NCBI RefSeq assembly: GCF_016097555.1
Contig: NW_024532772.1
Coordinates: 67,754-131,753, forward strand
Direction of reading: 5' to 3'
DNA: 64,000 nucleotides
Source: Gigantopelta aegis
Lineage: Eukaryota
Part shown: piece after piece, positions 8,127-62,900 of the stretch
Layout: every line of letters begins with the position of its first letter
Position numbering within the stretch: position 1 is the stretch's first letter
Position numbers and translations under genes: made by a program
Notes under the pieces: model-generated
The model's input: only the letters and a program-made list of their open reading frames with translations
The model's database searches: none
Told to the model about the DNA's origin: nothing

Positions 8127-8858
8127 ATGGACAAAATGATATTGACTTTCATACTAATACTTTCCATTGGAGCAGTGCTTTGTGACAAACCTGACTACAA
8201 AGATGACATCATTGACACACCAATCTTCAATGTCACTAACTCTGAAGCTAAGAAACCCAATCCAGTACCAGAAGACAAACATCAGACCCAACCCACAAAA
8301 CAACCCCTTCCAGAATATTACAACCCTCCTTTTGATCCTGAGAACCCATCAGAACCATTATTTACAAAGTCAGGGGCTCGTCTTATAACAATCAATGAAC
8401 TATCCGCACATGGTAGTGTTAATGGTACCTTACGTCCAATATGGCTGGCAGTAATGGGGCGTGTCTACGATGTAGAAAAAAGGCTATGATAGCCATTATG
8501 GTCCAAAAGGAGGATACAATTTTTTCACTGGACGTGACGGATCAAAAGCTTTTGTTACTGGAAAATTTGATGATGAAGGCCTCACAGACGATGTCTCAGA
8601 ATTAACACCTATACAACTCAAAGATATTGAGGACTGGATACACTTTTATGACAAGGACTACACATATGTTGGTAAACTTATAGGACGTTACTATGACAAA
8701 ACAGGAAACCCTACCAAAGAATTGTACAAATATCAGAGGAATCTGGCTAAAGCTGAAGAGATCAAAGCAGAGCAGCAAGCCCAAGAAAAGCAGTTCCCTC
8801 CTTGTAATTCCCGTTACACACCTGCTGAAGGAGGATTAGTCTACTGTTCTACAAATAG
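8127..8858 (+). CDS. CYB5D2: neuferricin / cytochrome b5 domain-containing protein 2 homolog, exon 1 (signal peptide + cyt-b5-like heme domain). Carries a 1-nt frameshift in an A6 run at 8476-8481
   Basis: MDKMILTFILILSIGAVLC signal peptide, then ...LRPIWLAVMGRVYDVEK / GYDSHYGPKGGYNFFTGRDGSKAFVTGKFDDEGLTDDVSELTPIQLKDIEDWIHFYDKDYTYVGKLIGRYY. The family motif reads only if one A is removed from the run. GT donor at 8859. Confidence 0.75.
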
Positions 8859-8920
8859 GTATATACTGTATTAATAACTACTTATAACAAGTTAACCACA
8901 CCCATTAATTTCCTCTTTAG

Positions 8921-9107
8921 TGGTGGTATTCAACGAGACTGGGAGGGACTTCCTCGAAGGTATTTCATTCCTGGTACAAAGGACTGGTGTTGTGCTTGTG
9001 TTAATGACAAAGACTTAGACAATCCTCACATTAAATTGTATCCTGGGTGTGCACCTAATGCTCCTAAATGCAAAGTCGATAAACAAAAAATGAGAGAGGA
9101 ACTCTGA
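8921..9107 (+). CDS. CYB5D2: neuferricin homolog exon 2 (C-terminal Cys-rich tail, stop at 9105-9107)
   Basis: Acceptor tcctctttag at 8911-8920. The phase-2 junction gives ...STN-S-GGIQRDWEGLPRRYFIPGTKDWCCACVNDKDLDNPHIKLYPGCAPNAPKCKVDKQKMREEL*. Confidence 0.65.
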
Positions 9108-9454
9108 AACTAAATATCATTGTATTAATGCTATTTATATGCTGCTGCTGTTTATAATGCAATTTCATTTAGGTTGGATAGTACAACCACAATAGTTGTC
9201 CGATATTCTTTCAATTTTTTGATGCAATTTCAATATCAAAATTGTGATAGTTTTCTCAAATAAGATAGTAATTAACATCATACAAGACTGACAGTGTATA
9301 CAAATAATATCTAAAAAGCCTTTGTTATATGAAGAACAAAATATAATAAGTGATAGTAGAAATAATAATGAACATACCCTAACTAAATGATATTATATAA
9401 TAGGTAATTATTACCTATTGTGTTAGCCAGGGATGAGACTTTATAATTTCTCTA

Positions 9455-9629
9455 CTCCTTTCTCCATAATCATATTGTAATTCTTCTCCAGGTGTTATGT
9501 TTCTTGTGGCCATGAGACAAAGGTATGGATGGTCGTCTACTGGAATTAATTTTGTTGTTACGTTTGCTGATGTTTTTGCTGTGGTTTAAAAGACGTCCAA
9601 ATCTTCCATTATCTTTTGTTGCATCAACA
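9455..9629 (-). CDS. KMT5A: KMT5A (SET8/PR-Set7)-like histone H4K20 methyltransferase, last exon (SET C-terminus). Frameshift at an A5 run near 9575
   Basis: VDATKDNGRFGRLLNHSK / TSANVTTKLIPVDDHPYLCLMATRNITPGEELQYDYGERSREIIKSHPWLTQ* closely matches the SET8 C-terminus ...RLINHSK..GEELLYDYGDRSKASIEAHPWLKH*. The two halves are in different frames. Confidence 0.8.
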
Positions 9630-9893
9630 CTAAAAATAAATAAAACATACTATACTAAATCTAGTATTTGAAACCAATTCCTATATGATAGTTTAGGAAT
9701 GAGGCTCCTTGATATATTGTAGACTCATTCCAAACCATTTTCCATTCTATTTATGCAAAAATTGTCATTTCACTATGTTAAGTTTCATACTGAATTGATA
9801 TTCCGGGAATGAGGTTGTTACAAGACCTTTAAATGTAGAGACTCACTCCCAGGCTCACAATCCAGCATGAAAGTATAAGAATGAATATATTAC

Positions 9894-10097
9894 CATAGTT
9901 TTTTATTCTTGTATTCAAAGTAGTACATATAACAGCCAATGGAAGTATCTCTCTCATAATCTTCCTCTCTCTTCTTTTGCCTCCTCAAAAAAGATACCAA
10001 TTCTCCAGAATACTCACAAACCAGTTCACCTTTTGAGAATGGTCTTGTAGCTACTACACCTCTCCCTTTACCTTCAACATCAACAGCCTATATATTG
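9894..10097 (-). CDS. KMT5A: KMT5A-like exon (SET domain N-terminal half)
   Basis: AVDVEGKGRGVVATRPFSKGELVCEYSGELVSFLRRQKKREEDYERDTSIGCYMYYFEYKNKKLC. Flanked by acceptor atatatag and donor GTAATA. Confidence 0.75.
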
Positions 10098-10265
10098 TAC
10101 ATTTATAATACATGTACATAGTAATTGTTGTATAAGGCCTTTAACACTGGTGTACAAAGGTACATACAATTTGTTATCTACTGGCTACTAAAAATAGAAT
10201 GATACTATTTATAGAACAACATAACCATCATGAAGCATAGTATAACACGATATAATGTCACTAAC

Positions 10266-10325
10266 TTCTAGTCCATCCTCAATTTTGTTCTTTAATTTGT
10301 AGACCACATGTTCAAACTTCTCTGT
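10266..10325 (-). CDS. KMT5A: KMT5A-like 60-bp exon
   Basis: TEKFEHVVYKLKNKIEDGLE between acceptor ttattaatag and donor GTTAGT. Confidence 0.6.
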
Positions 10326-10364
10326 CTATTAATAAGATAATGAATGTACATTACTCTCTGTCTG

Positions 10365-10374
10365 TCTGTGTCTT

Positions 10375-10407
<33 letters not shown>

Positions 10408-10420
10408 TTCTCTTACTTCA
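10365..10420. repeat. (CT)n/(CA)n compound microsatellite in a KMT5A intron
   Basis: ctctctctctctcacacacacacacacaca. Confidence 0.85.
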
Positions 10421-10489
10421 ATGTCTGATTTACATCTTCTTGTACTTCTTCTAACTGGAAAATGATCTCTTATACTTTGCTGTACAACT
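10417..10489 (-). CDS. KMT5A: KMT5A-like exon
   Basis: RVVQQSIRDHFPVRRSTRRCKSDIE matches SET8 ...KLTDFYPVRRSSRKSKAELQ. Donor GTAAGA. Confidence 0.65.
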
Positions 10490-10592
10490 CTATTATAAGT
10501 TAAGACAATATGCTATAATATTTTGAACAAACTTGTTAATAATAACTATGAAATATTTGATATAGTAAACTATATTTGATATAACAGATTGC

Positions 10593-10594
10593 TG

Positions 10595-10625
<31 letters not shown>

Positions 10626-10640
10626 TATATATATAACAGT
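10593..10640. repeat. (AT)n microsatellite
   Basis: atatatatatatatatatatat. Confidence 0.85.
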
Positions 10641-10707
10641 AGTATTAGCAGGGGTCTATGATTTCAAGGATCTCATTAAGTGATTGGGCAGTTGGAGTAA
10701 TATTTAC

Positions 10708-11177
10708 CTTCTCTGTGGTTTTGTCTGATCATCTTTCTTGGGTATTGCTGCCTGTGCTTTTTGTTTTGGTCTCTCTCTACGACTACGAACACTAGATGAA
10801 GGTTGGATCGTTGATGATGGCAATGTCTTCTTAGTGTGAGGTATGTCTTTTTGTTTCTCTTGTCCTGTTTTCCTGGTAACTATAGCAACGTCTGTTGATG
10901 ATGGCAACGTCTTCTTAGTGTGGGGTATGTCTTTTCGTTTCTCTTGTCCTGTTTTCCTGGTAACTATAGCAACATCTTTATCAGATAAGGTTAAATCAAT
11001 CACAGTTTCAGTTTCAGATTTCTTTTCAATTGAAGCAGCTGCTACTGGTTGTCTGTCTGTCTCCTTCTCCTCGGAGATCATGATACATTCACCTGTTGTT
11101 GATTTTTTAGAGGAACATGGCACATCATCTTGGAGTGTGTCTTTAGTTGTGTCCTGATGTTTAGTAGAGCCAGACAT
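10708..11177 (-). CDS. KMT5A: KMT5A-like first coding exon (basic, low-complexity N-terminus) with an internal 84-bp tandem duplication
   Basis: ORF MSGSTKHQDTT...KPQRR ending at a GTAAAT donor. DVAIVTRKTGQEK(R/Q)KDIPHTKKTLPSST occurs twice. Confidence 0.65.
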
Positions 11178-11266
11178 TCTTATTATCCTTTAAAGAGACC
11201 CGCCTAAAATTATTAATTATTATTAAAACCACGCCTTTTAAATAATTAGAGAAGGGCGTGGTTTTG
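11178..11266. promoter_or_regulatory. 89-bp head-to-head intergenic region (putative bidirectional promoter) with an 11-bp inverted repeat AAAACCACGCC(N19)GGCGTGGTTTT
   Basis: The minus-strand KMT5A-like ATG is at 11175-11177 and the plus-strand dehydrogenase ATG at 11267. IR arms at 11225-11235 and 11255-11265, plus gacccgcc at 11204-11211. Confidence 0.5.
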
Positions 11267-12508
11267 ATGGCTACGGAAGAAACTTCGGATACAGAAAGAG
11301 ATGGGCATTCTTCGTCCAAGTATAAGAATACTTCAGAAAACAAAAAGAAAGTAGCAGCGAAACAGGACAGAGACTGCCTTTGTGGTATGAAAGTTGTCAT
11401 TACTGGAGGCTGTGGTTTTCTGGGCCTCCATCTTGCTCGACTGCTTTACCAAAAGGTTCAAGACATTCATATAATGTTGTTTGATAAGAGTCCTGCTGAT
11501 GAAGCTGCCATGAATTTTATTACTAATGGAGTACCTAATGGAGATCGTGTCAGTTATGGTGGAAGACACAATGACATTATGATTCTAGAACATCTCAATG
11601 CAGCTTTTCAAGATGCTGATGTTGTCTTCCATTGTGCTGCAATAACATCCTCGTGTGCTAAAATAGATTTCAATAAAAAAATGCAGAGAGTCAATGTAGA
11701 AGGCACAGCAAATGTTGTCAAAGCTTGTCAGAGACAAGGTGTACGAGCACTAGTCTTCACTGGTGACTTAGCTCAGGTTTTAAGATCTGGACTTCATGTA
11801 CAAGAGGGTATCACTGAAGATGTCATAGTTCGTGATCATGAGGAATTAGTAATGGATCATTTTGGACGTTCAAAGACTGAAGCAGAGAGGAAAATCCTCC
11901 AAGCAAATGGGTTCAAGACAACCTTATACACGTGTTCAATACGTTGTCCTCCTTTATATGGAGAAAATGATACCACATTCTTACCAAATGCTTTCTGGGC
12001 TGCTGAAAAGTTCTACAAATATTTTCCTTTAATTGGGCATCCTTCTGTGAAAATGACTGCTATGTATGTGGAAAATGCAGCCTGGGGTCATATATGTGCA
12101 GCAAAGAAGCTCCTGGATGAAAATGCCAGACTTAGAGTTGGTGGTCAGTTTTATTATGTTACAGATGACACTCCTTCTGAAAGCTACAGTGATTTCTTTA
12201 AGCGATTTCTTAGCTCTCTTGGTTATAGGACTTTACCTATTCGTCTTCCTGTCCTCCTTCTTACATGTTTTACTTACTTAATGGTTGTCTTGATTGTATT
12301 CTTAGTGGCTGTCTTTCAATATAAAAGTCTGGGTCGTGCTTTAAACTATCGTCGTCAACTTAAAATGCTATCTACCAGTCATACTGTTTCAAGAGAAAAG
12401 GCAAGGATTGAGTTGGACTATGAGCCTCATGTTCCATTTGATGAGGCATTCAAACAGTCTTCTCGATGGTATCTTTTTAACATTGGAATGCTTCTAACTA
12501 GAATATGA
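11267..12508 (+). CDS. intronless 3beta-hydroxysteroid dehydrogenase/isomerase-family (extended SDR, NAD(P)-binding) protein with C-terminal transmembrane helices
   Basis: VVITGGCGFLGLHLARLLY Rossmann motif, DVVFHCAAITS, and hydrophobic LPIRLPVLLLTCFTYLMVVLIVFLVAVF. The GTG-started ORF at 11258 actually begins at ATG 11267. Confidence 0.75.
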   Translation: MATEETSDTERDGHSSSKYKNTSENKKKVAAKQDRDCLCGMKVVITGGCGFLGLHLARLLYQKVQDIHIMLFDKSPADEAAMNFITNGVPNGDRVSYGGRHNDIMILEHLNAAFQDADVVFHCAAITSSCAKIDFNKKMQRVNVEGTANVVKACQRQGVRALVFTGDLAQVLRSGLHVQEGITEDVIVRDHEELVMDHFGRSKTEAERKILQANGFKTTLYTCSIRCPPLYGENDTTFLPNAFWAAEKFYKYFPLIGHPSVKMTAMYVENAAWGHICAAKKLLDENARLRVGGQFYYVTDDTPSESYSDFFKRFLSSLGYRTLPIRLPVLLLTCFTYLMVVLIVFLVAVFQYKSLGRALNYRRQLKMLSTSHTVSREKARIELDYEPHVPFDEAFKQSSRWYLFNIGMLLTRI

Positions 12509-12539
12509 GTTAAACGATTTCTTAAGTATCTTTAATTAT

Positions 12540-12830
12540 AGAGTTTTATTTATTCGTCTTCCTGTCCTCCTTCTTACATGTTTTACTTATTTAATGGTCG
12601 TCTTGATTGTATTTTTAATGACTGTCTTTCGATATAAAAGTCTGGGTTGTGTGTTCTAAACTATCGTCATCAACTTAAAAATGTTATCTACCAGTCATAC
12701 TGTTTCAAGAGAAAAGGAAAGGACTGAGTTTGGACTATAAACCTTGTGTTCAATTCGATGAGGCATTCAGACAATCTTCTTGATGGTACAATTTTAATAT
12801 TAGAATGCTTCTACTAGAATGTAAACAAAA
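12540..12830 (+). pseudogene. orphan duplicate of the dehydrogenase 3' end (TM region + C-terminus), frameshifted
   Basis: About 85% identical to 12215-12508 and 15780-16060. Confidence 0.7.
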
Positions 12831-12983
12831 ATTAAATATTAATAATTATCATTAATTAATATTTGTTTTTAATTATATTTATTATAGTCAACAAAACGGA
12901 AGCGAATAATTAAATTTTAGTTCGTACTCAGGCGGTGTCTTTGTTGCTTGGCAACGCGAGACCACGCCCAATATTCGTGGTTC

Positions 12984-13017
12984 ATGATGGCTCGTCCTCT
13001 CAGTTCAAAACAACTAA
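12984..13017 (+). CDS. possible first coding exon (MMARPLSSKQL) of the death-domain gene, preceded by a gagaCCACGCCcaat promoter motif
   Basis: ATG followed by a GTAAGA donor at 13018. CCACGCC + CCAAT at 12953-12968. Confidence 0.25.
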
Positions 13018-13235
13018 GTAAGATTGATTGATGTAAATTAATGTGTGATAAGTTGCCAGAACTGATTATATATACTCTTTTGTGTGATTACTTTGCTCTA
13101 GCTACTGTTTAACTTAGGTTGAGTCCAGATAACTGGGGCCTAAGAAATACTTAGGGCTAATAGTTGTTGTTTTTTTTTACTATCGTTTAGTTTGCTCTCA
13201 TCAACTGAGAATGTACCTATCTCATATTCTTACAG

Positions 13236-13470
13236 ATATTACTCATTAAATGAAATACTGGAAGTGTTGAAAGCCAGTCATTTTTTTGGAACGAAACTGG
13301 CTAACCCTTGGTCTCAATCTTGGTCTATTAATGGACACATTAACAACTGTTGAGGCACAATATGGGCCAGATATTGGTCGATGTCTTAAGGAATGTTTGT
13401 CTTTATGGTTACAAAGAATGGACAGGGTTGACGAGAGAGGTGGAACCACTTGGTATGCATTAGCTACTGC
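13236..13470 (+). CDS. death-domain exon. Frame breaks at a T7 run at 13281-13287
   Basis: LNEILEVLKASHF / LERNWLTLGLNLGLLMDTLTTVEAQYGPDIGRCLKECLSLWLQRMDRVDERGGTTWYALATALSK shows the death-domain pattern W..LA..LGL...I..I....L..W....G..AT...L..AL. Acceptor cttacag at 13229-13235. Confidence 0.5.
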
Positions 13471-13562
13471 TCTTAGTAAATAGGAGACAATGTTTCTGCT
13501 GAAAATGCCAGACAGAAAGGTATGTATTAAATGCTTGCATAAAGTCTGATTAAATTTTTTAG

Positions 13563-13866
13563 CACAAGAAGTTGAAAAAGAAAGAGAAATTTTCTCAGCA
13601 CCAGTTTGTCCAAATGCTCAGAAAATACTCCAACAGACTTTCACTTCCAGAGAATATTGTCAAAATATTGTATGAAGAGGGAGTGATCTCAAAAGAGATG
13701 TTAGATGAAGTAAATAGATTGGGAGGTGTACTATGTGATGGTCCATTACGAGCACTGTGTACTAGTGTGTATAAAAACCCTTATATATTAAAGGTGTTCG
13801 CTAGTGTCTTGTTGAAATCTGAACAAACAGTGTCAATTGCTAAAGATATATTGAAGGAATATGGTA
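13563..13866 (+). CDS. CARD/death-fold-like exon
   Basis: HKKLKKKEKFSQHQFVQMLRKYSNRLSLPENIVKILYEEGVISKEMLDEVNRLGGVLCDGPLRALCTSVYKNPYILKVFASVLLKSEQTVSIAKDILKEYG. Acceptor ttttttag, donor GTAAAA. Confidence 0.45.
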
Positions 13867-14018
13867 AAATAAATTATAACTATGTATATATAATTAATTA
13901 TTTTTATAGACCAAGTCTTTCCTTTACAAATCAGTCTCCATCCAACCTACCAATATGATTTTGATCAGATGAGAGTGAACTTTGGCAATCTCATTCACAA
14001 GGTTGCACCTCTCATTGA

Positions 14019-14586
14019 GGCTGGTATTCTTCATTAGAAGAGCTCAAAACATATCTACGGAGATGTTTTAGAGAGCTGAGACCTCAATTATCTGTGGCTA
14101 AATCATTTGATGACATTATGGACCTCGTTCAAGATACATGTACTATCATTAATATTTGTTGCTTGGAGGCCATTGTTGACCAGTATGATATCACAGAAGC
14201 TAAACACCACATTGAAAAGTTCAAGAAAGCAGTTGATGCATTTTGTGAGAAAGTCAAACTGAGCATATGTTGCAATCAGAATTTAAAGATAACTTCCTCA
14301 TCTGTGTCATCTCATCTATGAAACTATTGTGTTTGTTCTTGAATGGGAAGCAGACAAGTACACACTTAATAGCATCAGAGGATTGTTAGCAAAGGCCTTT
14401 GGAAATGTGGCAAAGAGTGTCCAAGTTAGAGCAATAAAAGAAGGCAACTCCATCATTGTTACTTGTTATGCTCCACATTATATATTGGATAATCTACTAA
14501 CAGTAGCAAAGAAGAATCTTGATGTACTAAAAGCTATAGGATTAACAAAACTAACTATTAGCTACCAGACCATTTACAAGGTTAGA
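14019..14586 (+). CDS. further exon(s) of the same gene (Cys-rich helical segment, then ...VQVRAIKEGNSIIVTCYAPHYILDNLLTVAKKNLDVLKAIGLTKLTI)
   Basis: ORFs 14094-14321 and 14329-14589 in adjacent frames. Donor-like GTTAGA at 14584. Confidence 0.3.
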
Positions 14587-14926
14587 TAGTACTATATGAC
14601 CACACCAAGCTTAGTATAAAACATGTTACACTAGCTAGACAAATATTATTTCTTTATCTGTTATTTTCTAGACTATACAGCTACTGAAGATGAAATATGT
14701 CAAATAGAACAAATGAGTAAGGAAGGGAAGGAATGTTGAATATTAAATTTTAATGCCTAATATGATAAACATGTTTGTATGTATAATATATCATATATCT
14801 TTAATATTACAATACTATCCTACCTTATTTAGGAGAGAACATAGAAGTGGCACAAGAAAGTGAAAGTGGGGTGATAATGACAAGTAGATTAAGAGACATC
14901 AAAGAAGATCAGTATCATCTGAGGGA

Positions 14927-16065
14927 ATGAAATGGCATAATTATAATGTTGTTATTACTGGAGGTTGTGGTTTTCTGGGCCTCCATCTTGCTCGACTGCT
15001 TTACCAAAAGGTTCAAGGCATTCATATAATCTTGTTTGATAAGAATCCTGCTGATGAAGCTGCCATGAATTTCATTACTAATGTAGGATATAATAAAGAT
15101 CGTGTCCGTTACAGTGGAAGACACAATGATATTACGATTCTAGAACATCTCAATGCAGCTTTTCAAGATGCTGATGTTGTCTTCCATTGTGCTGCAATAA
15201 CATCCTCATTTGCTCAAATAGATTTCAATAAAAAATGCAGAAAGTCAATGTAGAAGGCACAGCAAATGTTGTCAAAGCTTGTCAGAGACAAGGTGTACGA
15301 GCACTAGTCTTCACTGGTGACTTAGCTCAGGTTTTAAGATCTGGGCTTCATGTACAAGAGGGTATCACTGAAGATGTCATAGTTTCATGATCATGAGGAG
15401 TTAGTAATGGATTGTTTTTGGACGTTCAAAGACTGAAGCAGAGAGGAAAGTCCTCCAAGCAAATGGGTTCAAGACAACCTTATACACTTGTTCAATACGT
15501 TGTCCTCCTTTATATGGAGAAAATGATACTACATTCTTACCAAATGCTTTCTGGGCTGCTGAAAGATTTTGTAAGCATTTTCCTTTAGTTGGACATCCTT
15601 CCGTAAAAATGACTGCTATGTATGTGGAAAATGCAGCCTGGGGTCATATATGTGCAGCAAACAAACTATTGGATGAAAATGCCAGACTTAGAGTTGGTGG
15701 TCAGTTTTATTATGTCACAGATGACACTCCTTCTGAAAGCTACAGTGATTTCTTTAAGCGATTTCTTAAATATCTTGGTTATAATGTGTTACCTATTCGT
15801 CTTCCTGTCCTCCTTCTTACATGTTTTACTTACTTAATGGTTGTCTTGATTGTATTTTTAATGGCTTTTTTTCGATATAAAAGCCCGAGTCGTGTTTTTT
15901 AATTATCGTCGTCAACTTAAAATGTTATCTATCAGTCATACTGTTTCAAGAGAAAAGGCAAGGACTGAGTTGGACTATGAGCCTCACGTTCAATTTGATG
16001 AGGCATTCAGGAAATCTTCTAGATGGTATAATTTTAACATTGGAATGCTTCTAGACATAATATGA
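14927..16065 (+). pseudogene. tandem paralog of the 3beta-HSD-family gene, disrupted by several indels
   Basis: MKWHNYNVVITGGCGFLGLHLARLLYQKVQGIHIILFDKNPADEAAMNFITN... is about 90% identical in nucleotides to 11390-12508. Breaks at 15236 (A6 against A7), 15372-15390 and others. ORFs 14927-15253 and 15609-15902 are its pieces. Confidence 0.7.
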
Positions 16066-16161
16066 CTTTTATTAATATATTTTTATGCGTTAATCTGTTT
16101 CATTTTTTATTAATAACATAATTTTATACTATGGGTGTTGTAGTTTTGACTGATCGCTAGA

Positions 16162-16229
16162 ATGATGTCTTCTGAGGAATGGAGGAGTCTAGGAGACACA
16201 GAAAAACGGCAGGCATTTGTCAGAAAAAC
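16162..16229 (+). CDS. MED15: MED15-like (KIX-domain, Q-rich) locus 1, exon 1
   Basis: MMSSEEWRRLGDTEKRQAFVRKT then donor. Resembles the Mediator-15 KIX start (..DWRS..FRQK.V..I). The same ~400-bp exon1-intron-exon2 module recurs at 26875-27280 and 33700-34100. Confidence 0.5.
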
Positions 16230-16399
16230 GTAGGAGTAATTCAAAAGATGTGTGAACAAAGAGGTGAGTAATTTGATGATATATAATCGAAAGACCCACT
16301 CGTTGTTAAGTTACTTTATAACAAGCTTTGATGTTGATATCTCTCACAAACTGACCTTTAAAATAGAACTATTACTATATTGTTATTGTTCTTGTTCAG

Positions 16400-16487
16400 T
16401 GCTGCGGCAGTGAGGATATTTCCTGAAGTCTTAACTCGTAATCCAGGAGATATAGAAGCTACTATCTACAATAAAGCTAAATCTGAG
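16400..16487 (+). CDS. MED15: MED15-like locus 1, exon 2 (KIX continuation)
   Basis: AAAVRIFPEVLTRNPGDIEATIYNKAKSE between acceptor cttgttcag and donor GTAAGT. Confidence 0.55.
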
Positions 16488-17692
16488 GTAAGTCTCACTT
16501 TGTATATTGACCACTAATGATTACTGTATTGTTTAATATTGTAAATATAACAATATATAATTGTATATTGTATATATTATATAATCTTATCATAATTGAA
16601 ATATTTAAGACTTCTTTGAGCGAAGATACCAGACTATCTTTCGCCATGGAACATGGTAGACTGGGGACAAGACTAAAATAATTAATAAATGTCCCTATAT
16701 GAACTAGGGCACTAAATAGAACACTGTTATTTATTTAGACTTTTCAAAGTATATATCTTTGCTAACTTTTTTACAGAAAGAGTATATGAACTTGGTATAT
16801 AGGATAGTTTTAGCCATTAAATTAGGCCTGTACGATATTCGGATAGATTTAGAACCTCAAGACAGTATGTTCTAATATATATATGGTCTGCTTTTATCAC
16901 TAGAAGCATTGGATACGTCTCAACCGGCATTATAGAGAATGTCTTCTTACGATCAGGACCGGAGGAGGCCCGAAAATGTCTGGTTTCAAGACTTATCTAA
17001 TAATTGATTTGGGAGATACTAACTTTATAGTGAAATATAATTATACCAACTATAAAGTTACAAAGTTTGGATAGTTAGTAACATTGTCTATACTGATCAT
17101 GATAGAATACTATAGAAATGTAACTATATAGGTACCTAGAGAAGCAAAACAGTTTGAGCCTTCAAATTAGTCCCACTGTAAATAATGAAATTAACTATGG
17201 TCACATCCATCATCATACTGAACACTTGCAGCTGGAGTTATATGTTTTGGCAGTTAATGGATGTGGTTTATTTTATATGGTACTTTCAATTATCGCATAC
17301 AACAATAATTATGTTAAATCACAAAACATACTATATATACCATTTGGTTCAAATGATTGTAGGACAGTATGCCAGGCAATAAAAATTGATGCACATACCA
17401 TCCTTCAAGAGATATAATTGTAACCAAAAGGAAGAGTGTATGGCTCTATTATCATATATACATGATCATGAGCAAACAGTATATTCCTGTTTTGCATAAT
17501 TGCTTAGAATGATAATGAAACTATGACATTGCTATAGTAACACTTCCATGTGGATATCTTATGATGTTAACTTACTATGTATAGCTGGCTGTGTTATCTT
17601 CCATCTTTTGGTTACAAATGCATGTGGGCCTATGAACATACATTAATTTTATATGTACATGATAGGACTGTTACTATTGTGGTATTTCTCCT

Positions 17693-17788
17693 ATTTAGTG
17701 CTAAGGCAATGAGAACCTTTTCTGGTGTCTCAGCTAATAATCCAGTTCCTATAGAAACTACTAGTTTTAGTAGTGCAGAGTCTGAGGT
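17693..17788 (+). CDS. MED15: divergent duplicate of exon 2 (AKAMRTFSGVSANNPVPIETTSFSSAESE)
   Basis: Paralogous to 16400-16487 and ends at the same GTAAGT donor. Confidence 0.4.
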
Positions 17789-18428
17789 AAGTGTTTACTT
17801 TTGCTTTTCAAATGTATCCCATAATGTCAAACCACACACTGTCTAATCTCTGACATAGTCTTTAATAAGTCTTTTGGTCTATTGTTGTCTCATTTGATTG
17901 ACTTAGCTGTAGCCTACATGTACATTTACAGTTTAATGTTATTATAAGTTCATTGTTAAAATTGCAAATTCATTGTTAATAGTGTACATGTAGTTAATTC
18001 TATACTGTATATGTATTTTAGTTTATGTCAAAAATGGAACTACAATAAAATGTTAAATAAAAATAAAATTAAACTTTACAATTTGTTGGAGCATTCAACC
18101 TAATCTTTGTTCTTTCTGTGGGGGTTCATTTCTTACTGTGCAAGCTAGGAAGGTGGAAGGAGTTCCATACTCTAACCAATTTATACTCTAACCAATTTGG
18201 TTGTCTTTTTTCATTTCTTGGGATTCTACACATAATTGCATCAATAAGGCATTAATCTAGTTGCTCATCAATCTTATAATTTCACTGACACATATAATAT
18301 ATATGAATGAATGTGACACTGATAATGGAGGATATAGTCATTACTATAACAACACTGCTGTTGTATTCTAACTACACCAAACATTTACTACTTTTCTACT
18401 GTTATTGTTTTGCCTGTAGGATGGATGC

Positions 18429-18500
18429 ATGAGCACAAGAAATGTGGCAATTCAGCTAATGCAGCAACAACAGCTTTATGTTGGATACCAACCGCAAACA
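18429..18500 (+). CDS. MED15: Q-rich exon (DGCMSTRNVAIQLMQQQQLYVGYQPQT)
   Basis: Acceptor tgcctgtag, donor GTATAT. Confidence 0.4.
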
Positions 18501-37686: not shown

Positions 37687-37731
<45 letters not shown>

Positions 37732-54380: not shown

Positions 54381-54435
<55 letters not shown>

Positions 54436-55109
54436 AGAGATACAGAGGTCATTTTTTACGACCTGTATTGTAGCAACAGCTTTACTAGCTCGTAGTACTC
54501 CACCATGTTCCTCAAAGACACAGGTATAGTCATTAGGAAGTTGTAACTGATGAGTATATTTCAAGTTAGCTTCTTCACCAGATAGAACTTGATGTGGTGT
54601 GTTGTTAGCTTCTAATGACTTAATAAAATGATCAACATCACTGCCTCCAAATATGATGGTACCAGTTTTACTGACGGAAGAGAGAGAGAATGAAAAGCAG
54701 AGAGACAAAGACATATTTAACTTACACAAACAAGGTGTTGTTCCAGATTTAATCTCAATTTCTGACCACATTTTGAAAGCTTCATCCATCATTTTAACAT
54801 AATAACTTTGATGATAAGCTTTCCTTGTAATACGTGATCCGCCATGAGAAACTACCACGTACATGACCTCTATCAAACTAAGAATAGAAACATATTTTAG
54901 TGACTATAATTCTGTCTATTCTAGTCTCATTTCTATAATATTCTAATATCTATGTTCCTAGTCTCCTTGGGACTATTTATTTCCTTACTTGTTCCAAGAG
55001 CAGTACATTTTGTGTACCTCTAGAAGTAAGGTAGTAAGCAGTAGAACTTCCCTCTATACCAGCTCCAATAATAATGACATCATAAACACTAGATTCCATC
55101 TCTAGAGAC
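52716..55109 (-). CDS. PIPOX: peroxisomal sarcosine oxidase / L-pipecolate oxidase-like (MSOX family, FAD-dependent), copy A, about 8 exons. Appears intact
   Basis: First exon 55109-54989 [37 protein letters not shown] (GxGxxG). Then [76 protein letters not shown]...[10 protein letters not shown]. Last exon ..[40 protein letters not shown]. Introns contain (GA)n/(CT)n microsatellites. Confidence 0.75.
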
Positions 55110-55152
55110 AAATTGTTCTAAATGATATGTGTGTATGTTAACAAAAATTATA

Positions 55153-57250
55153 ATATTATTTCAAAGTTACTTTAAATCGATCTATCCTGAAGTATGACAG
55201 ATCATATGATAGTGGTAATTCCAGAGCTAATTCAGTGAGTATCTTGCCTACAACTGGACCTAACTTAAAACCATGTCCTGTAATAAAGGATTAATTAAAA
55301 AAACAACCATTTTGGTATGGGTTCACCTGAAAATCCAGCTCCAATAATAATATTAGGATGGTTTGGGTGTCTGTCCAGGAATGGGTCTCTGTATGGCTAC
55401 AGGATTACATGTACATGGTACATATAGTTACATATACCCCACTTACAGTATATGTGTTATGCAAGTTTCATATATTGCAGGTTCTGAGAACACCACACTT
55501 TTAAAATGACCTTTGATAAACTTAGACACAGACTTCCACGTGTATGAACTAGGATTATAATCTCGAGCATCAGGATCAATTTTTGGTAAGTATCTCCACA
55601 AACCTAAGGAGTAATATTGCAGAGTACAATGGACTCATTTCCATACCTTGAAAAGACCAGGATATTCAAATATCGGTTGTCCATAAATCTCTAATGTTTA
55701 GACTTATATGCAAAAACTGGAAACTCATTGGCAGAAAATACTTTTGGGTTTTCAGTATTCCAATAAAGAACTTCTGCTTTATAAGGCTAAGAGAGAGAGA
55801 GAGAGAAAGATAACAATATTAGTTGTATATCATTGTTACCTGAAGTGGTAATGTAATCCAGTGAGTTTTATTATTATTATTAGTCCATGCTCCAGCTGTT
55901 AAGATTAGTCTCTTAGTTTTAAAGTTGTTACCTCTCTCAGTTTGAACAGTGATAATATCTCCTGGAATTATATCAGTAACTTTATGATTGTCTAACAGTT
56001 GACCTCCATGTTGAATAAAAAGATCCTGAGAGAGAGAGAGAGAGTTAGAGATACAGAGGTCATTTTTACTGACCTGTATTGTAGCAACAGCTTTACTAGC
56101 TCGTAGTATTCCACCATATTCCTCAAAGACACAGGTATAGTCATTAGGGAAGTTGTAACTGATGAGGATATTTCAAGTTAGCTTCTTCACCAGATAGAAC
56201 TTGATGTGTGTGTTGTTAGCTTCTAATGACTTAATGTATGACCAACTATTTCACCATCACCAAATACAGTAATACCAGTTTGTCTGAGAGAGAGAGAGAG
56301 AGAGAGTAACATTAAATTTAGTATAATTTTGTTAATAAACCCCACAATCTCTTTCTCTAGTTAAAGCATAGGGGTGGAGCTTATGTAATAACTACTGGGT
56401 ACTATAAAGATATCCGTAAGGGTACAAATTTTCGAGGGTTTAAATTTTCGTGTTTTTTAAATTTGCTTTATTATTTAAATTTCGTGGGTATTAATTTTCG
56501 TGTTTAGTGGGTGTGAAGTATTAATTAATGGGTGTGGTGTCAGACACAGTGTTGTGTTAACACAAGCGTGATTTTCCCGAAGTATGGCTACGTATTCCAA
56601 TTAAATCCATGGTGAGAGGGTACCATGTATACAAGAAAATCTGGGAGGCAGTTGATGGAGAGTACTTCAGTGTAAAATAGAAAGAAGTAACCCTTTACAG
56701 TAGCCGTTATTTACACGCTTATTGAGATCACGTGATTATGCGTGGGTGGAATAAAAGTTAAATTTCGTGTTAAAACAACAACCCACGAATATAGCGAAAA
56801 TAAATCCCCCCACGAAAATTTATACCCTTACGTATAGCAAAGGTCAACATTAAAGGTATGTGACTTACTGGTATAGCTGATTTCCTGATTTGATCTCAAT
56901 TTCTGACCACATTTGAAAGCTTCATCCATCATTTTAACATAATAACTTTGATGATAAGCTTTCCTTGTAATACGTGATCCACCATGAGAACTACCACGTA
57001 CATGACCTCTATCAAACTAAGAATAGAAACACATTTTAGTGACTCTATAATTCTGTCTATTCTAGTCTCATTTCCATGATATTCTAATATCTATGTTCCC
57101 ATTCTTCTTGGGAATGAGACTATTTATTTTCCTTACTTGTTCCAAGAGCAGTACATTTTGTGTACCTCTAGAAAGTAAGGTAGTGAGCAGTAGAAACTTC
57201 CCTCTATACCAGCTCAATAATAATGACATCATAAACACTAGAAGAAATAG
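55153..57250 (-). pseudogene. PIPOX: PIPOX-like copy B: near-identical tandem duplicate of copy A with a lost start codon, indels in the FAD motif and a MITE insertion
   Basis: 55700-56100 is about 95% identical to 54050-54460. The first-exon remnant at 57140-57250 reads [19 protein letters not shown]... with no ATG. Confidence 0.55.
56415..56832. mobile_element. ~418-bp MITE-like insertion with 20-bp terminal inverted repeats (1 mismatch) and subterminal AAATTTTCGTG repeats
   Basis: Left end cgtaagggtacaaattttcg. Right end cgaaaatttatacccttacg, whose reverse complement is cgtaagggtataaattttcg. Absent from the equivalent intron of copy A. Confidence 0.6.
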
Positions 57251-57492
57251 TGCCTGCACTGGTAGACATTTTAAGCAGTGATATCAGCTGATTTTTATGA
57301 ATGCTAACTCCTCAATTACAATTGTTGATATGTAATATATATACATCTGATATTAGGTAATTACTCGTGTGGGATTTAAGAAATACTTATAAACAAATAA
57401 ATAAAACATCTATGATAATATAAATATGCTCTAATATCTATGATGAATAGTGATATAGGAATATTAATAATTAAAACTCGGGACAATTTGTC

Positions 57493-59400
57493 ATGGCTGT
57501 TAGTGATAAATTAGGTTTTGTTATGTATGATGTTATTATTATTGGTGCTGGTATAGAAGGTAGTGCTGCTGCTTACTACCTTACATCAAAATCCAACAAG
57601 AAAGTTCTTCTTTTGGAGCAAGTGAGCTATCTCTCTCTCATATATTTCCATCTATATTGTTTTCAGTTTGAGGTACTACACACTCGTGGTAGTTCTCATG
57701 GAGCCTCTAGGATAACGTCGATTAGCTTACAATGAAGCTATTTATGTTAATATTATGAAGGAGGCTTACCAGTTATGGGAGGAGATAGAAAAGAAATCAC
57801 AACGTCAAACTTTACTGGTACATCTCATTGTACATGATGTCTTTATTGTAACTAGTCATATTCATCTATTCATCCATCTGTCCATTATACACATGTCTAT
57901 TTGTCCATTTACCAACCATCCATCCATCCAACCATCCTTTATATGGTTTCTTCAAATAGGAAGACAGGAATATTGGCTCTAGGCAAAGCTACTGACTCTT
58001 CAATAGACTTATATCATAATTCCTTAGATTTGAATGGAGTACCGCACATAAAGTCCTTACTGGGAGAGAAGCCAAGAAACTCTATTCTTGTCAACTGAGT
58101 ATTCCTGATGATAACAGGTGTATTTTTGAACCAAATGGAGGTGTATTAAAAGCCTCCAAGGCTTTGAGAACTTTACAGGTATTTAAGGATATTACACATA
58201 TTTATTTTGACAATCATAATTTATAATTATTATTTTTATTATAATACAGGAGTTGTTTCTACAACAAGGGGGTTGTCTCCTTGACAACCATCAGGTCACC
58301 AAGTTAATTCCTGGAGCAGTTGTTTACCGCTGTGACTGATAAAGGTAGTTTTCAAGCATGGAATGTGATCTTAACAACTGGTGCTTGGACAAACAGGATA
58401 CTGAATCAACTGGACTAACATTACAATGAAAGTATGGGAGAAGAACACTAACATTCTGTCTATTTATCCATCCATCCATATATCTATCTGTCCATCCATC
58501 CATGTATCTATTTACTTATGACATATAGAGCTGAAGTTCTTTTATTTTAAAGTTGATGAACCAGATGCTTTCTCAGCTGACAATTTCCCTGTCTTTCTAA
58601 ACTGCACATCCACCTGTTACTAATGTACCATCTATATATGGGACACCAATATTGGAAATATCCTGGACTACTAAAAGTAAGGTCATCACATGTAAAGTAT
58701 CTTTTTTATTTGTTATGGTTTACATGTAAAGTATCTGTTTACTTGTTATGTTTACAGGTAAAGTATATCAATTGTTTACTTGTTATTTTACATGTAAAGT
58801 ATCTTTTTTACTTGTTATGTTTACACGTAAAGTATCTTGTTTACTTGTTTGTTTACACATAAAGTATCTTGTTTACTTGTCACATGTCATCTATTCTTGT
58901 AGCAAACACATGTTCTGTTATTAAAAATTAATGATATACTTTCTCAGGTTTGTCAGTTTTTTGGAGATGACAAAGAGATTGATCCTGAGACCAGAGATTC
59001 CATTCCTCAGAGTTTGACTCTTGAACGAATTAAAGAATTCATCAAGAATCATTTCAAAGGAGTGAGCACTGAACCTGCTATTTTTGAGCTATGTCTCTAT
59101 GCAGATACTGTGAGTTGGTCTCATTCTATTTTCAGATTTTTGTTCAAGATTTCCATTCTCATATTTCCGTTCATGTATCTTTTTCTTCTTTATAGCCAGA
59201 TAACAATCCCTACATTGACAGACATCCTAAATATTCAAATATCATCGTAGGAGCAGGATTTTCTCATGGTTTTAAGATGGCTCCTGTTATCGGCAAGTTA
59301 TTAAGTGAACTGGTACTGAATTTGTTACCATCTTATGACCTGACACCTTTTAAGGTTGACCGCTTACAAGACCCCCAAGGCAGGATTGTGAGAAATTTTA
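57493..59400 (+). CDS. PIPOX: PIPOX-like copy C on the opposite strand, about 7 exons, with several frame breaks
   Basis: [43 protein letters not shown] (57493-57623). [17 protein letters not shown] / [31 protein letters not shown]. ..[44 protein letters not shown].. ..[91 protein letters not shown]. Confidence 0.65.
58690..58900. repeat. ~31-bp minisatellite x6 in an intron of copy C
   Basis: ttacatgtaaagtatcttgtttacttgttatg repeated. ORF 58623-58862 is its translation. Confidence 0.85.
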
Positions 59401-60399
59401 AACTTTATTGTATTTGTAAAGTCTATTATTGTCATTTAAAACTTTATAATGTTTTTGTTTTTTCTTCTTTAATTGATACTACATTTGACGGTATTATTTA
59501 CTAATTAATCATCATTAATGGGCGTGGTAGATAGAGAGACACAAAGAGATCACAGGAGGAATAAATAATTTATTTCTAGCTAATTACATGTTTCATCATT
59601 GTCATATACAAATATAGACAAGTCCTACAAGTATAAAACAAATGTAGTTATACAATAGATAATAGCCCATCTATTCTATTGTTATACATACATATATCTA
59701 AATGTACATGTATATGTTTGTTTAGTATTAAGTAAACTAATATCTTTGGAGCAATCCAATATAATATATGTTATTATAATATATTATTATAATTGTAGAA
59801 CTGTGTGTGTGTAGAGATTGATATCTTAATGTGTGTTATCACTTACTTATCTATATCTATTTCTTCATAACAATTGTTCTTTAATCTACTAAATAATTTT
59901 ACAATACAATTAAAACAACAAAATAGGTAAAAAATTACTCAATTACTCAATCCATCCATCCATCAATTTTTACCATTCTAGTCCAGTTCTAGTTAAAGTA
60001 GTATATAGTATATTGGCATAGTAGTTATGCGATCATTCCATACTTTGTGGCTGGAGTATTTCTAAAAGTAACAGTTAGTTCTGTAAATAAATATTAAAAT
60101 ATACTGTCCAGTTAATTAAGTAAAGATTAAGCATTATAACTTGTAATTGTATCAATAATAAAATACTTTAGATATTAATAATTATAAATAATTCCCTTGA
60201 TTTAATAAGAAACACTAGGTATCTATCTACTGAGAGAGGTTTACTAATAAACACAAAATATCTCTCTATTTCCTAGGTTTGATTTGGTGGTACGAGTGGG
60301 CTAGCTTGGGTTTGCTCAAAATTGGTTAAAACAATGCTTACAGGAAATAGGGCAAGTCTATTTCTTGTAGAAACCTTTAATCTTATGTCTAATCTATTA

Positions 60400-60700
60400 A
60401 TGATATTAATTCTAAACTGATCAGATTTTAGTGAGCACTGATCTTATAAGGCAATATACTAGAGTCTATTTCTTGTAGAATGACTAATTTTAATACAGTA
60501 GTAATTCTAGTAGCTGATCAAACGTCAAAGTTCAATTCTACTATAGTACTTGTTCTGGTAGTTGGCCGAAGGTCAATTCTAGTACAGTAATAGTTCTAGT
60601 ACGTGGACGAACATCAAAATTCAATTCTGCTATAGCACATGTTCTAGTAATTGGTCAAACGTGTAGTACTACATAGTACCAATACTAGGACACTAATATA
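60400..60700. repeat. ~60-bp tandem repeat, about 4 units
   Basis: gatcaaacgtcaaagttcaattctactatagtacttgttctggtagttggccgaaggtcaattctagtacagtaatagttctagtacgtggacgaacatcaaaattcaattctgctatagcac. Confidence 0.6.
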
Positions 60701-60849
60701 TAGTGATAGTCATGTGACTTTATACAAACAATGCCTTTGGAATATTGGTATCAATTCTAACAAGTTATATTGAGATGACCAAACTAGTTATCCTAGAAAT
60801 ATCAACATAATAGTCAAATAAGTCCATATATGGTATAGTTCTAGTATTT

Positions 60850-60895
60850 TCTACTAAAATAAAAATAAAAATAAAAATAAAAATACTAAAATTAT
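60850..60895. repeat. (AAAAAT)n microsatellite
   Basis: aaaataaaaataaaaataaaaataaaaatactaaaat. Confidence 0.8.
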
Positions 60896-60949
60896 ATTTA
60901 GTCTAATATCAATATTAGAACAAACACTTTAGTATTCTATTTATTATAT

Positions 60950-61080
60950 ATTATAAGTAATATTATATATATAGTGTATAGGTGTATTATATAACATAGT
61001 GTATTATATAATATATTGTATAGTGTGTATTATATATTATAGTATATATGTGGATTATATATTATAGTGTGTACTACATG
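60950..61080. repeat. low-complexity (TGTATTATATA)n-like repeat
   Basis: gtgtattatataa / tagtgtgtattatatattatag repeated. Confidence 0.6.
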
Positions 61081-61734
61081 TAGTGAAAAATTACACAAAG
61101 AGATTTAATTTAAATAATAATTACTCACTCTTACTTAAAGATATCTGATATAATATTGAGATCTTTCTAAGTTATTGAACATCTGTCATCCTTAAAAAGA
61201 AATATTAGTTCAGCTGGTCCATCCATTTTTTCAATTAATCTATCCATCCATTAACTCATCATCCATTAATCTATCCATGCCATCAATCATTCATCCATTT
61301 TCACTCACTAGATACCAATCTGCAAACCTAATATTTAACCCTATCTACACACGCGCGTGGTAGAATAATTAACTCCTAGTATGTGCAGTTGACTGAAGGG
61401 TCAAGAAAATTTAATAAATTTTCCCCAAATCACACACACACACATGATAGGAACTTAATAAGGTAATATTTAATTATAAAAAATTATCAAAATTATTATA
61501 AATGATTATTACAGATGACGGTGGTTGCCAAAGGTAAGGATTGAATTACAACATTCAAATTTAACAATCATATAGAAACTAACTATTGACAGTTACTTTT
61601 AAGAACTGGTCTCAGTCTCCTTAACATCGGAACCAGTCTCTTTATCACTTGATTTAGTCTCAGACATAGTGACTCAGACTCACTGCAAGAAGGCACAGAC
61701 TCATCTCTTCATCACCAAGCTTAGCTTTAGGACA

Positions 61735-62900
61735 TCAGGAGGGTACAGACTTGTTTACACTATCCTCAGACCCAATACATTTATTAGGCCTCGGACTCAG
61801 TACCTTCAGTAGACTCAGACTTGGTCTAATGTCAGACTTTTCTATCTGAGAAGCAGCACTAGGAGGTTGAAAACTCTTAAAAAACACTACTATTGCAGTG
61901 AGGTTATCGCCTGATCCCTCACTACGAGCAAATTTCACTACACTCTTAGCAGCATTAACCATAGTTCCTCCATTTAGGAAATGCTTCCTCATGCAATCAC
62001 TCATCTCTTCTCCGTTAACAACATCCCATATCCCATCGCAGGCAACCACTAAATAATCCTCAGAACCGTCCAAGTCAACTGTCGTCACTTCCGCTTCGCC
62101 AATTAATATTTTTTATCTTTAGCATCACCAATAGCTCGAGATACAGCAAGGTTACCATTAACTCTCCATGCTCCCAAAAAGATGACAAGTCCTCCTGATT
62201 CTTCAATGCGTTTCTGTGTCATCTGTGAAAGGAGAAAGAAAGGAAATAAAGAGCGGAATTTAGGAAGGAACAGGGAAATGTAATGTAATAACTTAAATGT
62301 GAGTCACTCCCAGGTGGTATGAGGGTAAGAAGTGACTGGGCTGCCGGGGATGTAAACTAATAATGTTTTGTCAACATCTTTATCAGGCAATTTTAAATTT
62401 TCCCTGTATGGTAATTTAATTCCATTGGTACTCTCTATGACTTCTATTATCATGCTTTAGCACTCAACGTTAAACATTCAAAGACACAATCTTTCCCCTC
62501 ATTTCTCCCTTTCACTTTCTCTCTTTCCCTTACTCTCGTCTCTCCCGATGCATACCTACTCTATCTGGCTTGTGTGGGTACCATAATTTCTACGGCTTGA
62601 CCTTTACGGAACACACATAGCTTGAGAATCTCCTAGCCAACGATGTATAGCTTAAGTCCTCTAAGTAAAGCAACAACAGCTGTAGCACCAGCTTTGGTGT
62701 CCTGAAAAGAGGAAGGAGAGAAGTGAGCTATAATAGTCCCAAATAAGGAAGTGGTACAGACAAAAATCAATTTAATGACAATGGATCTTAGGATGGTAAG
62801 TTCAAAGAGGAGGCTTCTAACTGGAGACAGTTTCTATTCTAATGTCTCAAGGATTCATTACAAAGAGGTCATGTCTTGCTGGTGCTTTGATGACTAGGAG
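61735..62900 (-). CDS. PP2C-family (PPM) Ser/Thr phosphatase, 3' exons. Frameshift at a T7 run near 62103-62109
   Basis: [60 protein letters not shown] / [77 protein letters not shown]. These are the classic PP2C motifs. Confidence 0.7.

What the first reader, a model, noticed from the sequence alone, without database searches (positions are those of the whole stretch)
8470..62110. Pervasive 1-nt frameshifts, mostly at A/T homopolymers, across otherwise conserved genes
In every conserved gene I could read by motif, the conserved peptide continues in a neighbouring frame after a single-base slip. Most slips sit in A or T runs of 4 nt or more. Examples: CYB5D2 at the A6 run 8476-8481; KMT5A at an A5 run near 9575; the death domain at T7 13281-13287; the Ulp1 ORF at a T5 run near 26104; XBP1 at A5 42006-42010 and near 42150; MVP at about 45865, 46070 (aaa), 48086 (aaaa), 49250 and 49335; PP2C at T7 near 62105; plus many in the PIPOX B/C, MED15 2/3 and HSD B copies. 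Essential single-copy genes such as XBP1, KMT5A and MVP would not all be pseudogenes. The likelier cause is unpolished long-read or pyrosequencing homopolymer error. That means automated ORF-based annotation of this contig will fragment real genes.
Basis: inference. Interest (0 to 1): 0.6.

Follow-up and report, generated by a model that had tools for sequence, protein, structure and literature searches.

The report
Assembly indel errors break sponge genes
The single-base frameshifts are real in this sequence, but other assemblies of the same sponge lack them, so they are consensus sequencing errors in this contig and not pseudogenes or unusual decoding.

Summary
The window is nuclear DNA of a demosponge (about 35% GC, short GT..AG introns).

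Two long contigs of the same species in ENA assembly ERZ21830300 cover most of the window. I call them hapA and hapB. Over 45,168 well-aligned columns the window has 347 private 1-nt indels, against 19 in hapA and 18 in hapB. Private substitutions are comparable (539, 378 and 304).

All 16 listed frameshift sites that could be compared are private to the window. The Ulp1 element has no counterpart elsewhere and could not be compared.

- Seventeen ORFs that are intact in the haplotigs carry 101 frameshifts and no in-frame stop in the window.
- MVP has 7 frameshifts in the window and none in four other assemblies covering the gene or most of it.
- The three PIPOX copies have 7, 9 and 3 frameshifts in the window and none in either haplotig.
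- At 44.6-53.4 kb the window differs from hapB by 6 mismatches and 33 one-base indels.

The error interpretation is therefore supported. The homopolymer detail is only partly right: only 26% of the indels lie in runs of 4 or more, although the per-run error rate rises from 0.33% for single A/T bases to about 20% for 6-base runs. This is ordinary and already known. It matters only for annotating this contig.

The parts
1511..63752 (.). Span compared with two independent haplotigs. It holds 347 window-private 1-nt indels (183 insertions, 164 deletions) in 45,168 well-aligned columns. Density is about 0.3% per nt at 1.5-16.6 kb and 44.6-54 kb, and about 1.0-1.3% per nt at 30-44.6 kb and 54-63.8 kb.
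8476..8481 (+). Cyt-b5 (CYB5D2-like) exon. A6 in the window, A5 in both haplotigs. This splits a 248-aa ORF.
9573..9577 (-). SET-domain (KMT5A-like) exon. T5 on the + strand in the window, T4 in both haplotigs.
13211..13528 (+). Death-domain ORF (106 aa, intact in hapA) with 3 frameshifts at 13247, 13282 and 13481. The T7 run at 13281-13287 is TTTCTT in the haplotigs.
14847..16063 (+). HSD-B (3-beta-HSD-like paralogue; a 405-aa ORF intact in both haplotigs) with 5 frameshifts at 14901, 15230, 15385, 15413 and 15897.
23176..24339 (+). A 391-aa ORF, intact in hapA and 100% identical in protein, split in the window by one deletion at about 23719.
25799..26626 (+). Ulp1 (Peptidase_C48) plus PHD ORF read across three frames, with frame changes near 26055, 26104 and 26340. 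The element at 25486-26900 has no counterpart in any other assembly, so these frameshifts could not be checked by comparison.
30100..31662 (+). A 520-aa ORF, intact in hapA, with 25 frameshifts and no stop in the window.
34560..35157 (+). A 200-aa MED15-like ORF, intact in hapA, with 14 frameshifts in the window.
39496..41476 (-). Zwilch. A single-exon ORF (654 aa in hapA, hapB and a short-read scaffold, 651 aa in a second scaffold, 681 aa in a related sponge) has 21 frameshifts and no stop in the window, at 97.4% protein identity.
41745..42190 (+). XBP1-like bZIP exons. One inserted A at 42005-42010 (A5 against A4) and one deleted A at 42143 (A2 against A3).
45588..49668 (+). Major vault protein gene with 14 introns and 7 frameshifts at 45677, 45857, 46060, 48071, 48972, 49256 and 49332. 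No stop; 90% identity to a related sponge transcript.
52725..59370 (.). Three tandem PIPOX-like (DAO-domain) genes. Copy C is at 55084-52725 (-), copy B at 57233-55170 (-) and copy A at 57526-59370 (+). They carry 3, 9 and 7 frameshifts in the window and none in either haplotig.
61601..62740 (-). PP2C exons. A 193-aa ORF intact in the haplotigs has 7 frameshifts in the window, and the next exon has 5. The 62105 event is a missing C beside the T6 run, not a change in the run itself.

Best explanation
The window comes from a contig whose consensus still carries many small insertion and deletion errors. These are mostly single bases, at about 0.3% to 1.3% per base depending on the region. Wherever such an error falls in an exon it shifts the reading frame, so real, intact sponge genes look like chains of frameshifted fragments. 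The genes themselves are normal in this species. The error process is more likely at longer same-base runs, but it also hits single bases and adds some 2-nt insertions. This pattern suggests a low-coverage or unpolished long-read consensus. That the indels are errors is shown. The platform and the coverage are inferred.
For: **Independent DNA of the same species**
1. Two contigs of ENA assembly ERZ21830300 (ctg715763l = hapA, ctg717434l = hapB) are collinear with most of the window. Their overlapping pieces merge with no conflicts.
2. In three-way alignments the window has 347 private 1-nt indels, against 19 in hapA and 18 in hapB (binomial p about 4e-79). Private substitutions are 539, 378 and 304. 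None of the 347 is half of an opposite-sign pair within 6 nt, so misalignment does not create them.
3. At 44.6-53.4 kb the window and hapB differ by 6 mismatches and 33 one-base indels over 8,774 nt. The two real haplotypes differ there by 107 mismatches and 5 one-base indels (Fisher p = 6e-22).

**Effect on genes**
4. All 16 protein-inferred frameshift sites in CYB5D2, KMT5A, the death-domain gene, HSD-B, XBP1 and MVP are window-private.
5. Seventeen ORFs intact in the haplotigs carry 101 frameshifts and no stop codon over 12,246 coding nt in the window. Protein identity in the corrected frames is mostly 89-100% (79.8% in one ORF).
6. MVP has no frameshift in hapA, hapB, short-read scaffold L007, Logan contig L009 (residues 3-666) or related sponge L001, and 7 in the window. 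PIPOX copies have 7, 9 and 3 in the window and none in either haplotig.
7. Coding sequence is not spared. Zwilch has 21 frameshifts in 1,981 nt, close to the 1.0% per nt of its surroundings. MVP exons have 7 in 2,566 nt and its introns 10 in 1,515 nt (p = 0.08).

**Error signature**
8. The per-run error rate for A/T rises from 0.33% (1 base) through 1.8%, 4.4%, 6.4% and 10.8% to 20% (6 bases).
9. Strand asymmetry of the indels flips along the window: 79 against 36 at 30-38.8 kb, 76 against 25 at 54-63.8 kb, 11 against 30 at 1.5-16.6 kb, and balanced in between. This is expected if few reads of differing orientation support each region. Germline mutation would not be expected to give it.
Against: - No reads were available, so the errors are inferred by comparison and not seen directly.
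- The window is not simply hapA or hapB plus noise. In 30-38.8 kb it also has more private substitutions than either haplotig, and it carries a private Ulp1-PHD element and a longer 485-nt array. Some of its differences are therefore real variation or paralogy.
- The few private indels of 3 nt or more, and some of the 1-nt indels, are probably real polymorphisms. Each haplotig has about 18-19 of its own.
- The platform cannot be named. Insertions and deletions are nearly balanced (183 against 164), which is not a textbook signature of any single technology.
Confidence: 0.97

Rival explanations
1. The indels are real germline mutations. On this reading the haplotype is a block of recently inactivated genes, a pseudogene graveyard.
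For: The indels are truly present in the window sequence. Some genes are tandem paralogues (HSD-B, PIPOX B and C, the MED15-like copies), where the loss of one copy would be tolerated.
Against: - There are 101 frameshifts and no stop in 12,246 coding nt, at mostly 89-100% protein identity.
- Single-copy essential genes (MVP, Zwilch, XBP1, KMT5A, PP2C) are hit as hard as the paralogues.
- On a stretch that differs from hapB by only 6 substitutions in 8.8 kb there are 33 one-base indels. That ratio is more than 100-fold above the real hapA-hapB ratio.
- Coding and non-coding sequence have similar indel density.
- The strand bias of the indels flips between regions.
Confidence: 0.01
2. The frameshifts are real and are bypassed when the genes are expressed. 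Possible routes are programmed ribosomal frameshifting, transcriptional slippage at homopolymers, or insertion/deletion RNA editing.
For: Many sites lie in A or T runs, the kind of sequence on which polymerases slip.
Against: - The same genes in the same species, and on the same haplotype at 44.6-53.4 kb, need no correction in other assemblies.
- Most sites are runs of 1-3 bases. My understanding is that this is too short for transcriptional slippage.
- No shared slippery motif is apparent at the sites compared.
- The same indels are equally dense in introns and between genes.
Confidence: 0.005
3. The window is correct and the comparison contigs are wrong. Both haplotigs might have been systematically mis-called or over-corrected at these positions.
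For: hapA and hapB come from one assembly (ERZ21830300), so a shared processing artefact is conceivable.
Against: - The haplotig versions give uninterrupted ORFs that match proteins of other species over their full length. The window versions do not.
- Independent short-read assemblies from other samples (L007 and Logan contig L009) and another sponge (L001) also keep MVP in frame.
- hapA and hapB differ from each other at 107 positions in the 8.8-kb test span yet agree against the window at the indel sites.
Confidence: 0.01

Closest known systems
Gene-fragmenting indel errors in long-read assemblies
   Same: Both show an excess of 1-nt indels over substitutions, a rate that rises with homopolymer length, and genes broken into adjacent-frame fragments that independent accurate data restore. 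The problem is described in PMC12007338 (Kastor) and PMC9262707 (Nanopore homopolymer indels that need polishing), both found. I also know it from Watson & Warr 2019, Nat Biotechnol.
   Different: Here the genome is a eukaryote with introns, so the fragmentation is harder to see. The error rate varies four- to five-fold along 64 kb, and the strand bias flips. That points to very low and uneven read support, not a uniform systematic bias.
Pyrosequencing (454) or Ion Torrent homopolymer length miscalls
   Same: Over- and under-calls of same-base runs increase with run length.
   Different: About 23% of the indels are not next to an identical base. Of the 44 private 2-nt insertions, only 15 are homodinucleotides. 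My understanding is that flow-based chemistry does not produce such events.
Pervasive programmed +1 frameshifting in Euplotes (from my own knowledge)
   Same: Many genes need a one-base frame change to be read.
   Different: In Euplotes the shifts occur at AAA-TAA or AAA-TAG and are present in every copy of the gene. Here the sites compared share no apparent motif, go in both directions, and are absent from other assemblies of the same species.

Membership tests
Consensus indel error of a sequence assembly | The indels are absent from independent assemblies of the same species or haplotype. | tested here: met
   All 16 comparable frameshift sites, and 347 one-base indels in all, are private to the window relative to hapA and hapB. 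MVP is in frame in two further short-read assemblies.
Consensus indel error of a sequence assembly | The ratio of 1-nt indels to substitutions is far above the natural ratio. | tested here: met
   Window against hapB: 33 one-base indels and 6 mismatches. hapA against hapB over the same 8.8 kb: 5 and 107. Fisher p = 6e-22.
Consensus indel error of a sequence assembly | The error rate rises with homopolymer length. | tested here: met
   The per-run rate for A/T is 0.33%, 1.8%, 4.4%, 6.4%, 10.8% and 20% for runs of 1 to 6 bases.
Consensus indel error of a sequence assembly | Coding sequence is not depleted, so no selection has acted on the indels. | tested here: met
   Zwilch has 21 in 1,981 nt, against about 1.0% per nt around it. 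MVP exons have 0.27% and its introns 0.66%, p = 0.08.
Consensus indel error of a sequence assembly | Accurate reads from the same DNA contradict the consensus at these positions. | not testable with these tools
   No read data are available, and the window's own source record was not found.
Pseudogenes (unitary or duplicated) | In-frame stops and relaxed constraint accompany the frameshifts, and indel lengths are mixed. | tested here: not met
   No stop against 101 frameshifts, with mostly 89-100% protein identity. The excess is almost entirely 1-nt events, with a smaller share of 2-nt events.
Programmed frameshifting or transcriptional slippage | The frameshift site is conserved in the gene's other copies and relatives, with a defined slippery motif. 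| tested here: not met
   The sites are absent from the haplotigs, the short-read assemblies and a related sponge. Most runs are 1-3 bases long.

The most novel reading that the evidence does not exclude
The indels might be truly present in the DNA of the individual that gave this contig, for example in a repair-deficient lineage. The genes would then still be expressed through some frame-correcting mechanism. Without reads from the source sample I cannot formally exclude this.
Probability: 0.004. Interest if true: 0.9.

Novelty: not a real feature. Interest (0 to 1): 0.08.

Why it matters
The value is practical. Any gene prediction, pseudogene count, selection analysis or "gene loss" claim made from this contig, and probably from the rest of its assembly, would be wrong. 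At 0.3-1.3% indels per base almost every gene is hit. Even genes that look intact at first sight are broken (PIPOX copy A), and a 654-aa single-exon gene (Zwilch) disappears from ORF lists. An accurate version of the same locus already exists in ENA assembly ERZ21830300 (contigs ctg715763l and ctg717434l). It can be used to correct the window or to replace it.

Tried and rejected
- **Looking for the window's own record.** Exact look-ups of three long window ORFs found nothing. The source, platform and coverage therefore remain unknown.
- **Chimeric protein query.** A query joining the CYB5D2, KMT5A and XBP1 conceptual proteins gave no hit, probably because low-complexity and coiled-coil words swamped the candidate list.
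- **Direct look-up of a locus-derived ORF.** I got round it by first registering ORFs through the cluster look-up.
- **Pfam scan of all six-frame ORFs.** I prepared it and then dropped it as unnecessary once same-species contigs were found.
- **Ulp1-PHD element.** Neither DNA nor protein searches against any fetched locus found a counterpart, so its frameshifts remain uncompared.
- **Sample accessions.** A search of the paper library for the accessions, to name the sponge, found nothing.
- **Intron explanation, rejected.** A one-base gap cannot be an intron. The aligner models GT/GC..AG introns in all three phases and still needs the frameshifts.
- **Alignment-artefact explanation, rejected.** No opposite-sign indel pairs occur within 6 nt, and the control genomes give no frameshifts.
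Full report
**What the window is.** The sequence is about 35% GC and carries spliced animal genes. A conceptual major vault protein (MVP) built from it is 89% identical to unnamed Logan transcripts. It is 84% identical to MVP of the demosponges Dysidea avara and Halichondria panicea. The window is therefore nuclear DNA of a demosponge. Exons are separated by short GT..AG introns.

**Checking the observation by eye.** At 8476-8481 the Cyt-b5 reading frame runs into a stop after GRVYDVEK. It continues as GYDSHYGPKGG only if the A6 run is read as A5. The bZIP region of XBP1 needs one base removed from the A5 run at 42006-42010 and one A added near 42143.

**Checking it formally.** I wrote a protein-to-DNA aligner that allows introns in all three phases, one-base insertions and deletions, and stop codons.
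- Against transcript-derived protein P0001 of a related sponge, the window's MVP aligns over residues 3-855 at 90% identity. It has 14 introns, 7 one-base frameshifts and no stop.
- The same aligner finds the same intron positions and no frameshift in the MVP gene of another sponge, L001.
- The intact paralogue HSD-A, used as reference, shows four frameshifts in HSD-B, all in A or T runs.
- The eight full units of the 485-nt tandem array at 18969-23053 differ by six singleton 1-nt indels and only two or three singleton substitutions.

**Finding the same species elsewhere.**
- A search with the intact HSD-A ORF found a 99%-identical protein in ENA assembly ERZ21830300, on two contigs: ctg715763l (217 kb) and ctg717434l (2.2 Mb).
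- Both contigs are collinear with the window. There the Cyt-b5 exon is an uninterrupted 248-aa ORF and HSD-B an uninterrupted 405-aa ORF.
- One MVP exon ORF of the window is present letter for letter on ctg717434l.
- By walking along both contigs I assembled 63.7 kb of hapA and 57.5 kb of hapB, with no conflicts in the overlaps.
- Short-read scaffolds from two other ENA assemblies and two Logan contigs, about 93-96% identical to the window, cover the XBP1-MVP region or parts of it.

**The decisive comparison.**
- Three-way alignments cover 45,168 well-aligned columns. Changes private to one sequence are as follows.

| Private change | Window | hapA | hapB |
|---|---|---|---|
| 1-nt indels | 347 (183 insertions, 164 deletions) | 19 | 18 |
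| 2-nt indels | 56 | 8 | 6 |
| Substitutions | 539 | 378 | 304 |

  The excess of 1-nt indels has a binomial p of about 4e-79, and none of the 347 belongs to an opposite-sign pair within 6 nt.
- All 16 frameshift sites inferred from protein homology in CYB5D2, KMT5A, the death-domain gene, HSD-B, XBP1 and MVP appear in the list of window-private indels. The aligned columns are shown.
- At 44.6-53.4 kb the window carries the hapB haplotype. There are 6 mismatches in 8,774 aligned bases but 33 one-base indels. The two real haplotypes differ over the same span by 107 mismatches and 5 one-base indels (Fisher p = 6e-22).

**Effect on genes.** I used ORFs that are intact in the haplotigs as references.

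| Gene or ORF | Frameshifts in the window |
|---|---|
| Zwilch (654 aa) | 21 |
| 520-aa ORF | 25 |
| 200-aa MED15-like ORF | 14 |
| Two PP2C exons | 7 and 5 |
| 140-aa ORF after the XBP1 bZIP exons | 7 |
| HSD-B | 5 |
| Death-domain ORF | 3 |
| PIPOX copies A, B, C | 7, 9, 3 |

- Over 17 ORFs and 12,246 coding bases there are 101 frameshifts and no in-frame stop, at mostly 89-100% protein identity (79.8% in one ORF).
- MVP has no frameshift in hapA, hapB, short-read scaffold L007 or Logan contig L009.
- With an outside PIPOX-like reference (P0197), the three tandem PIPOX genes have no frameshift in either haplotig.

**Error profile.**
- Of the 347 events, 71% involve A or T, against 65% A+T in the sequence.
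- By run length, 77% lie in a run of 2 or more, 50% in a run of 3 or more, and 26% in a run of 4 or more.
- The chance that an A/T run is mis-sized rises from 0.33% for single bases to 10.8% for 5-base and 20% for 6-base runs.
- Forty-four private 2-nt insertions exist, of which 15 are homodinucleotides.
- Density varies from about 0.3% per base (1.5-16.6 kb and 44.6-54 kb) to 1.0-1.3% (30-44.6 kb and 54-63.8 kb).
- Strand bias flips along the window. A or G gains together with T or C losses dominate at 30-38.8 kb (79 against 36) and at 54-63.8 kb (76 against 25). The complementary classes dominate at 1.5-16.6 kb (30 against 11). The middle is balanced.
- I read this as a consensus supported by few noisy reads whose orientation differs from region to region. 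That step is inference.

- The T7 run in the death-domain gene is TTTCTT in both haplotigs.
- The PP2C frameshift near 62105 is a missing C beside a T6 run, not a change in the run itself.
- Copy A of PIPOX is also broken.
- Zwilch, the most heavily damaged single-exon gene, was not noticed.

**What could not be checked.** The Ulp1-PHD ORF at 25.8-26.6 kb lies in a 1.4-kb segment with no counterpart in any fetched locus. Joining its three frames lengthens the Peptidase_C48 match from profile positions 89-187 to 5-203, so the frame changes are real. Whether they are errors or decay of a mobile-element gene is open.

**Comparison with what is known.** Gene fragmentation by residual indels in long-read assemblies is well documented (PMC12007338 and PMC9262707, found). 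The window meets the four sequence-level criteria of that artefact that I could test. It fails the criteria for pseudogenes and for programmed frameshifting (see the membership table).

**Verdict.** There is no biological novelty. Interest is low, apart from the practical warning that this contig should not be annotated as it stands and that an accurate version of the locus is publicly available.

Noticed in passing
window 39496-41476 (-): A Zwilch homologue is a single-exon ORF in the other assemblies: 654 aa in hapA, hapB and one short-read scaffold, 651 aa in a second scaffold, 681 aa in a related sponge. In the window 21 frameshifts shatter it, so it does not appear in any ORF list.
   Followed up: yes
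window 25486-26900: A segment encoding a Ulp1 protease plus PHD finger ORF is absent from hapA, hapB and a related locus (L004) at this position. It looks like a mobile-element insertion private to the window's haplotype.
   Followed up: partly
window 18969-23053: A 485-nt tandem array has 8.5 near-identical units, each holding an exon-like ORF of a Q-rich MED15-like protein. hapA has only about 3 units and hapB lacks this part of the locus. This is either a copy-number polymorphism or an assembly expansion.
   Followed up: partly
window 1500-63800: The strand bias of the private indels flips between regions, and their density changes four- to five-fold. This suggests that very few reads of differing orientation support each part of the consensus.
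   Followed up: yes
window 16984-19917 and 44600-53400: The window matches hapA almost perfectly at 17-20 kb (99.7-99.9%) and hapB at 44.6-53.4 kb (6 mismatches in 8.8 kb). It is therefore either a recombinant third haplotype or a consensus that switches between haplotypes.
   Followed up: partly
window 11267-16063; L004 10001-18513: The HSD3B-like gene followed by a death-domain gene forms a repeated cassette. The window, hapA and hapB have two HSD copies. A related contig at 89% identity (ERZ21862620) has three.
   Followed up: no
window 52725-59370: Three tandem PIPOX-like (DAO-domain) genes, two on the minus strand and one on the plus strand, are all intact in both accurate haplotigs. They are functional paralogues, not pseudogene copies.
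   Followed up: yes
window 53219-53896: A 38-nt minisatellite of 18 copies has a copy number that differs between the window and the haplotigs.
   Followed up: no
L008 about 9144-9360: One short-read scaffold (ERZ23495529) has 200 Ns and appears to lack MVP exons here. This produced one spurious frameshift call in my aligner.
   Followed up: no
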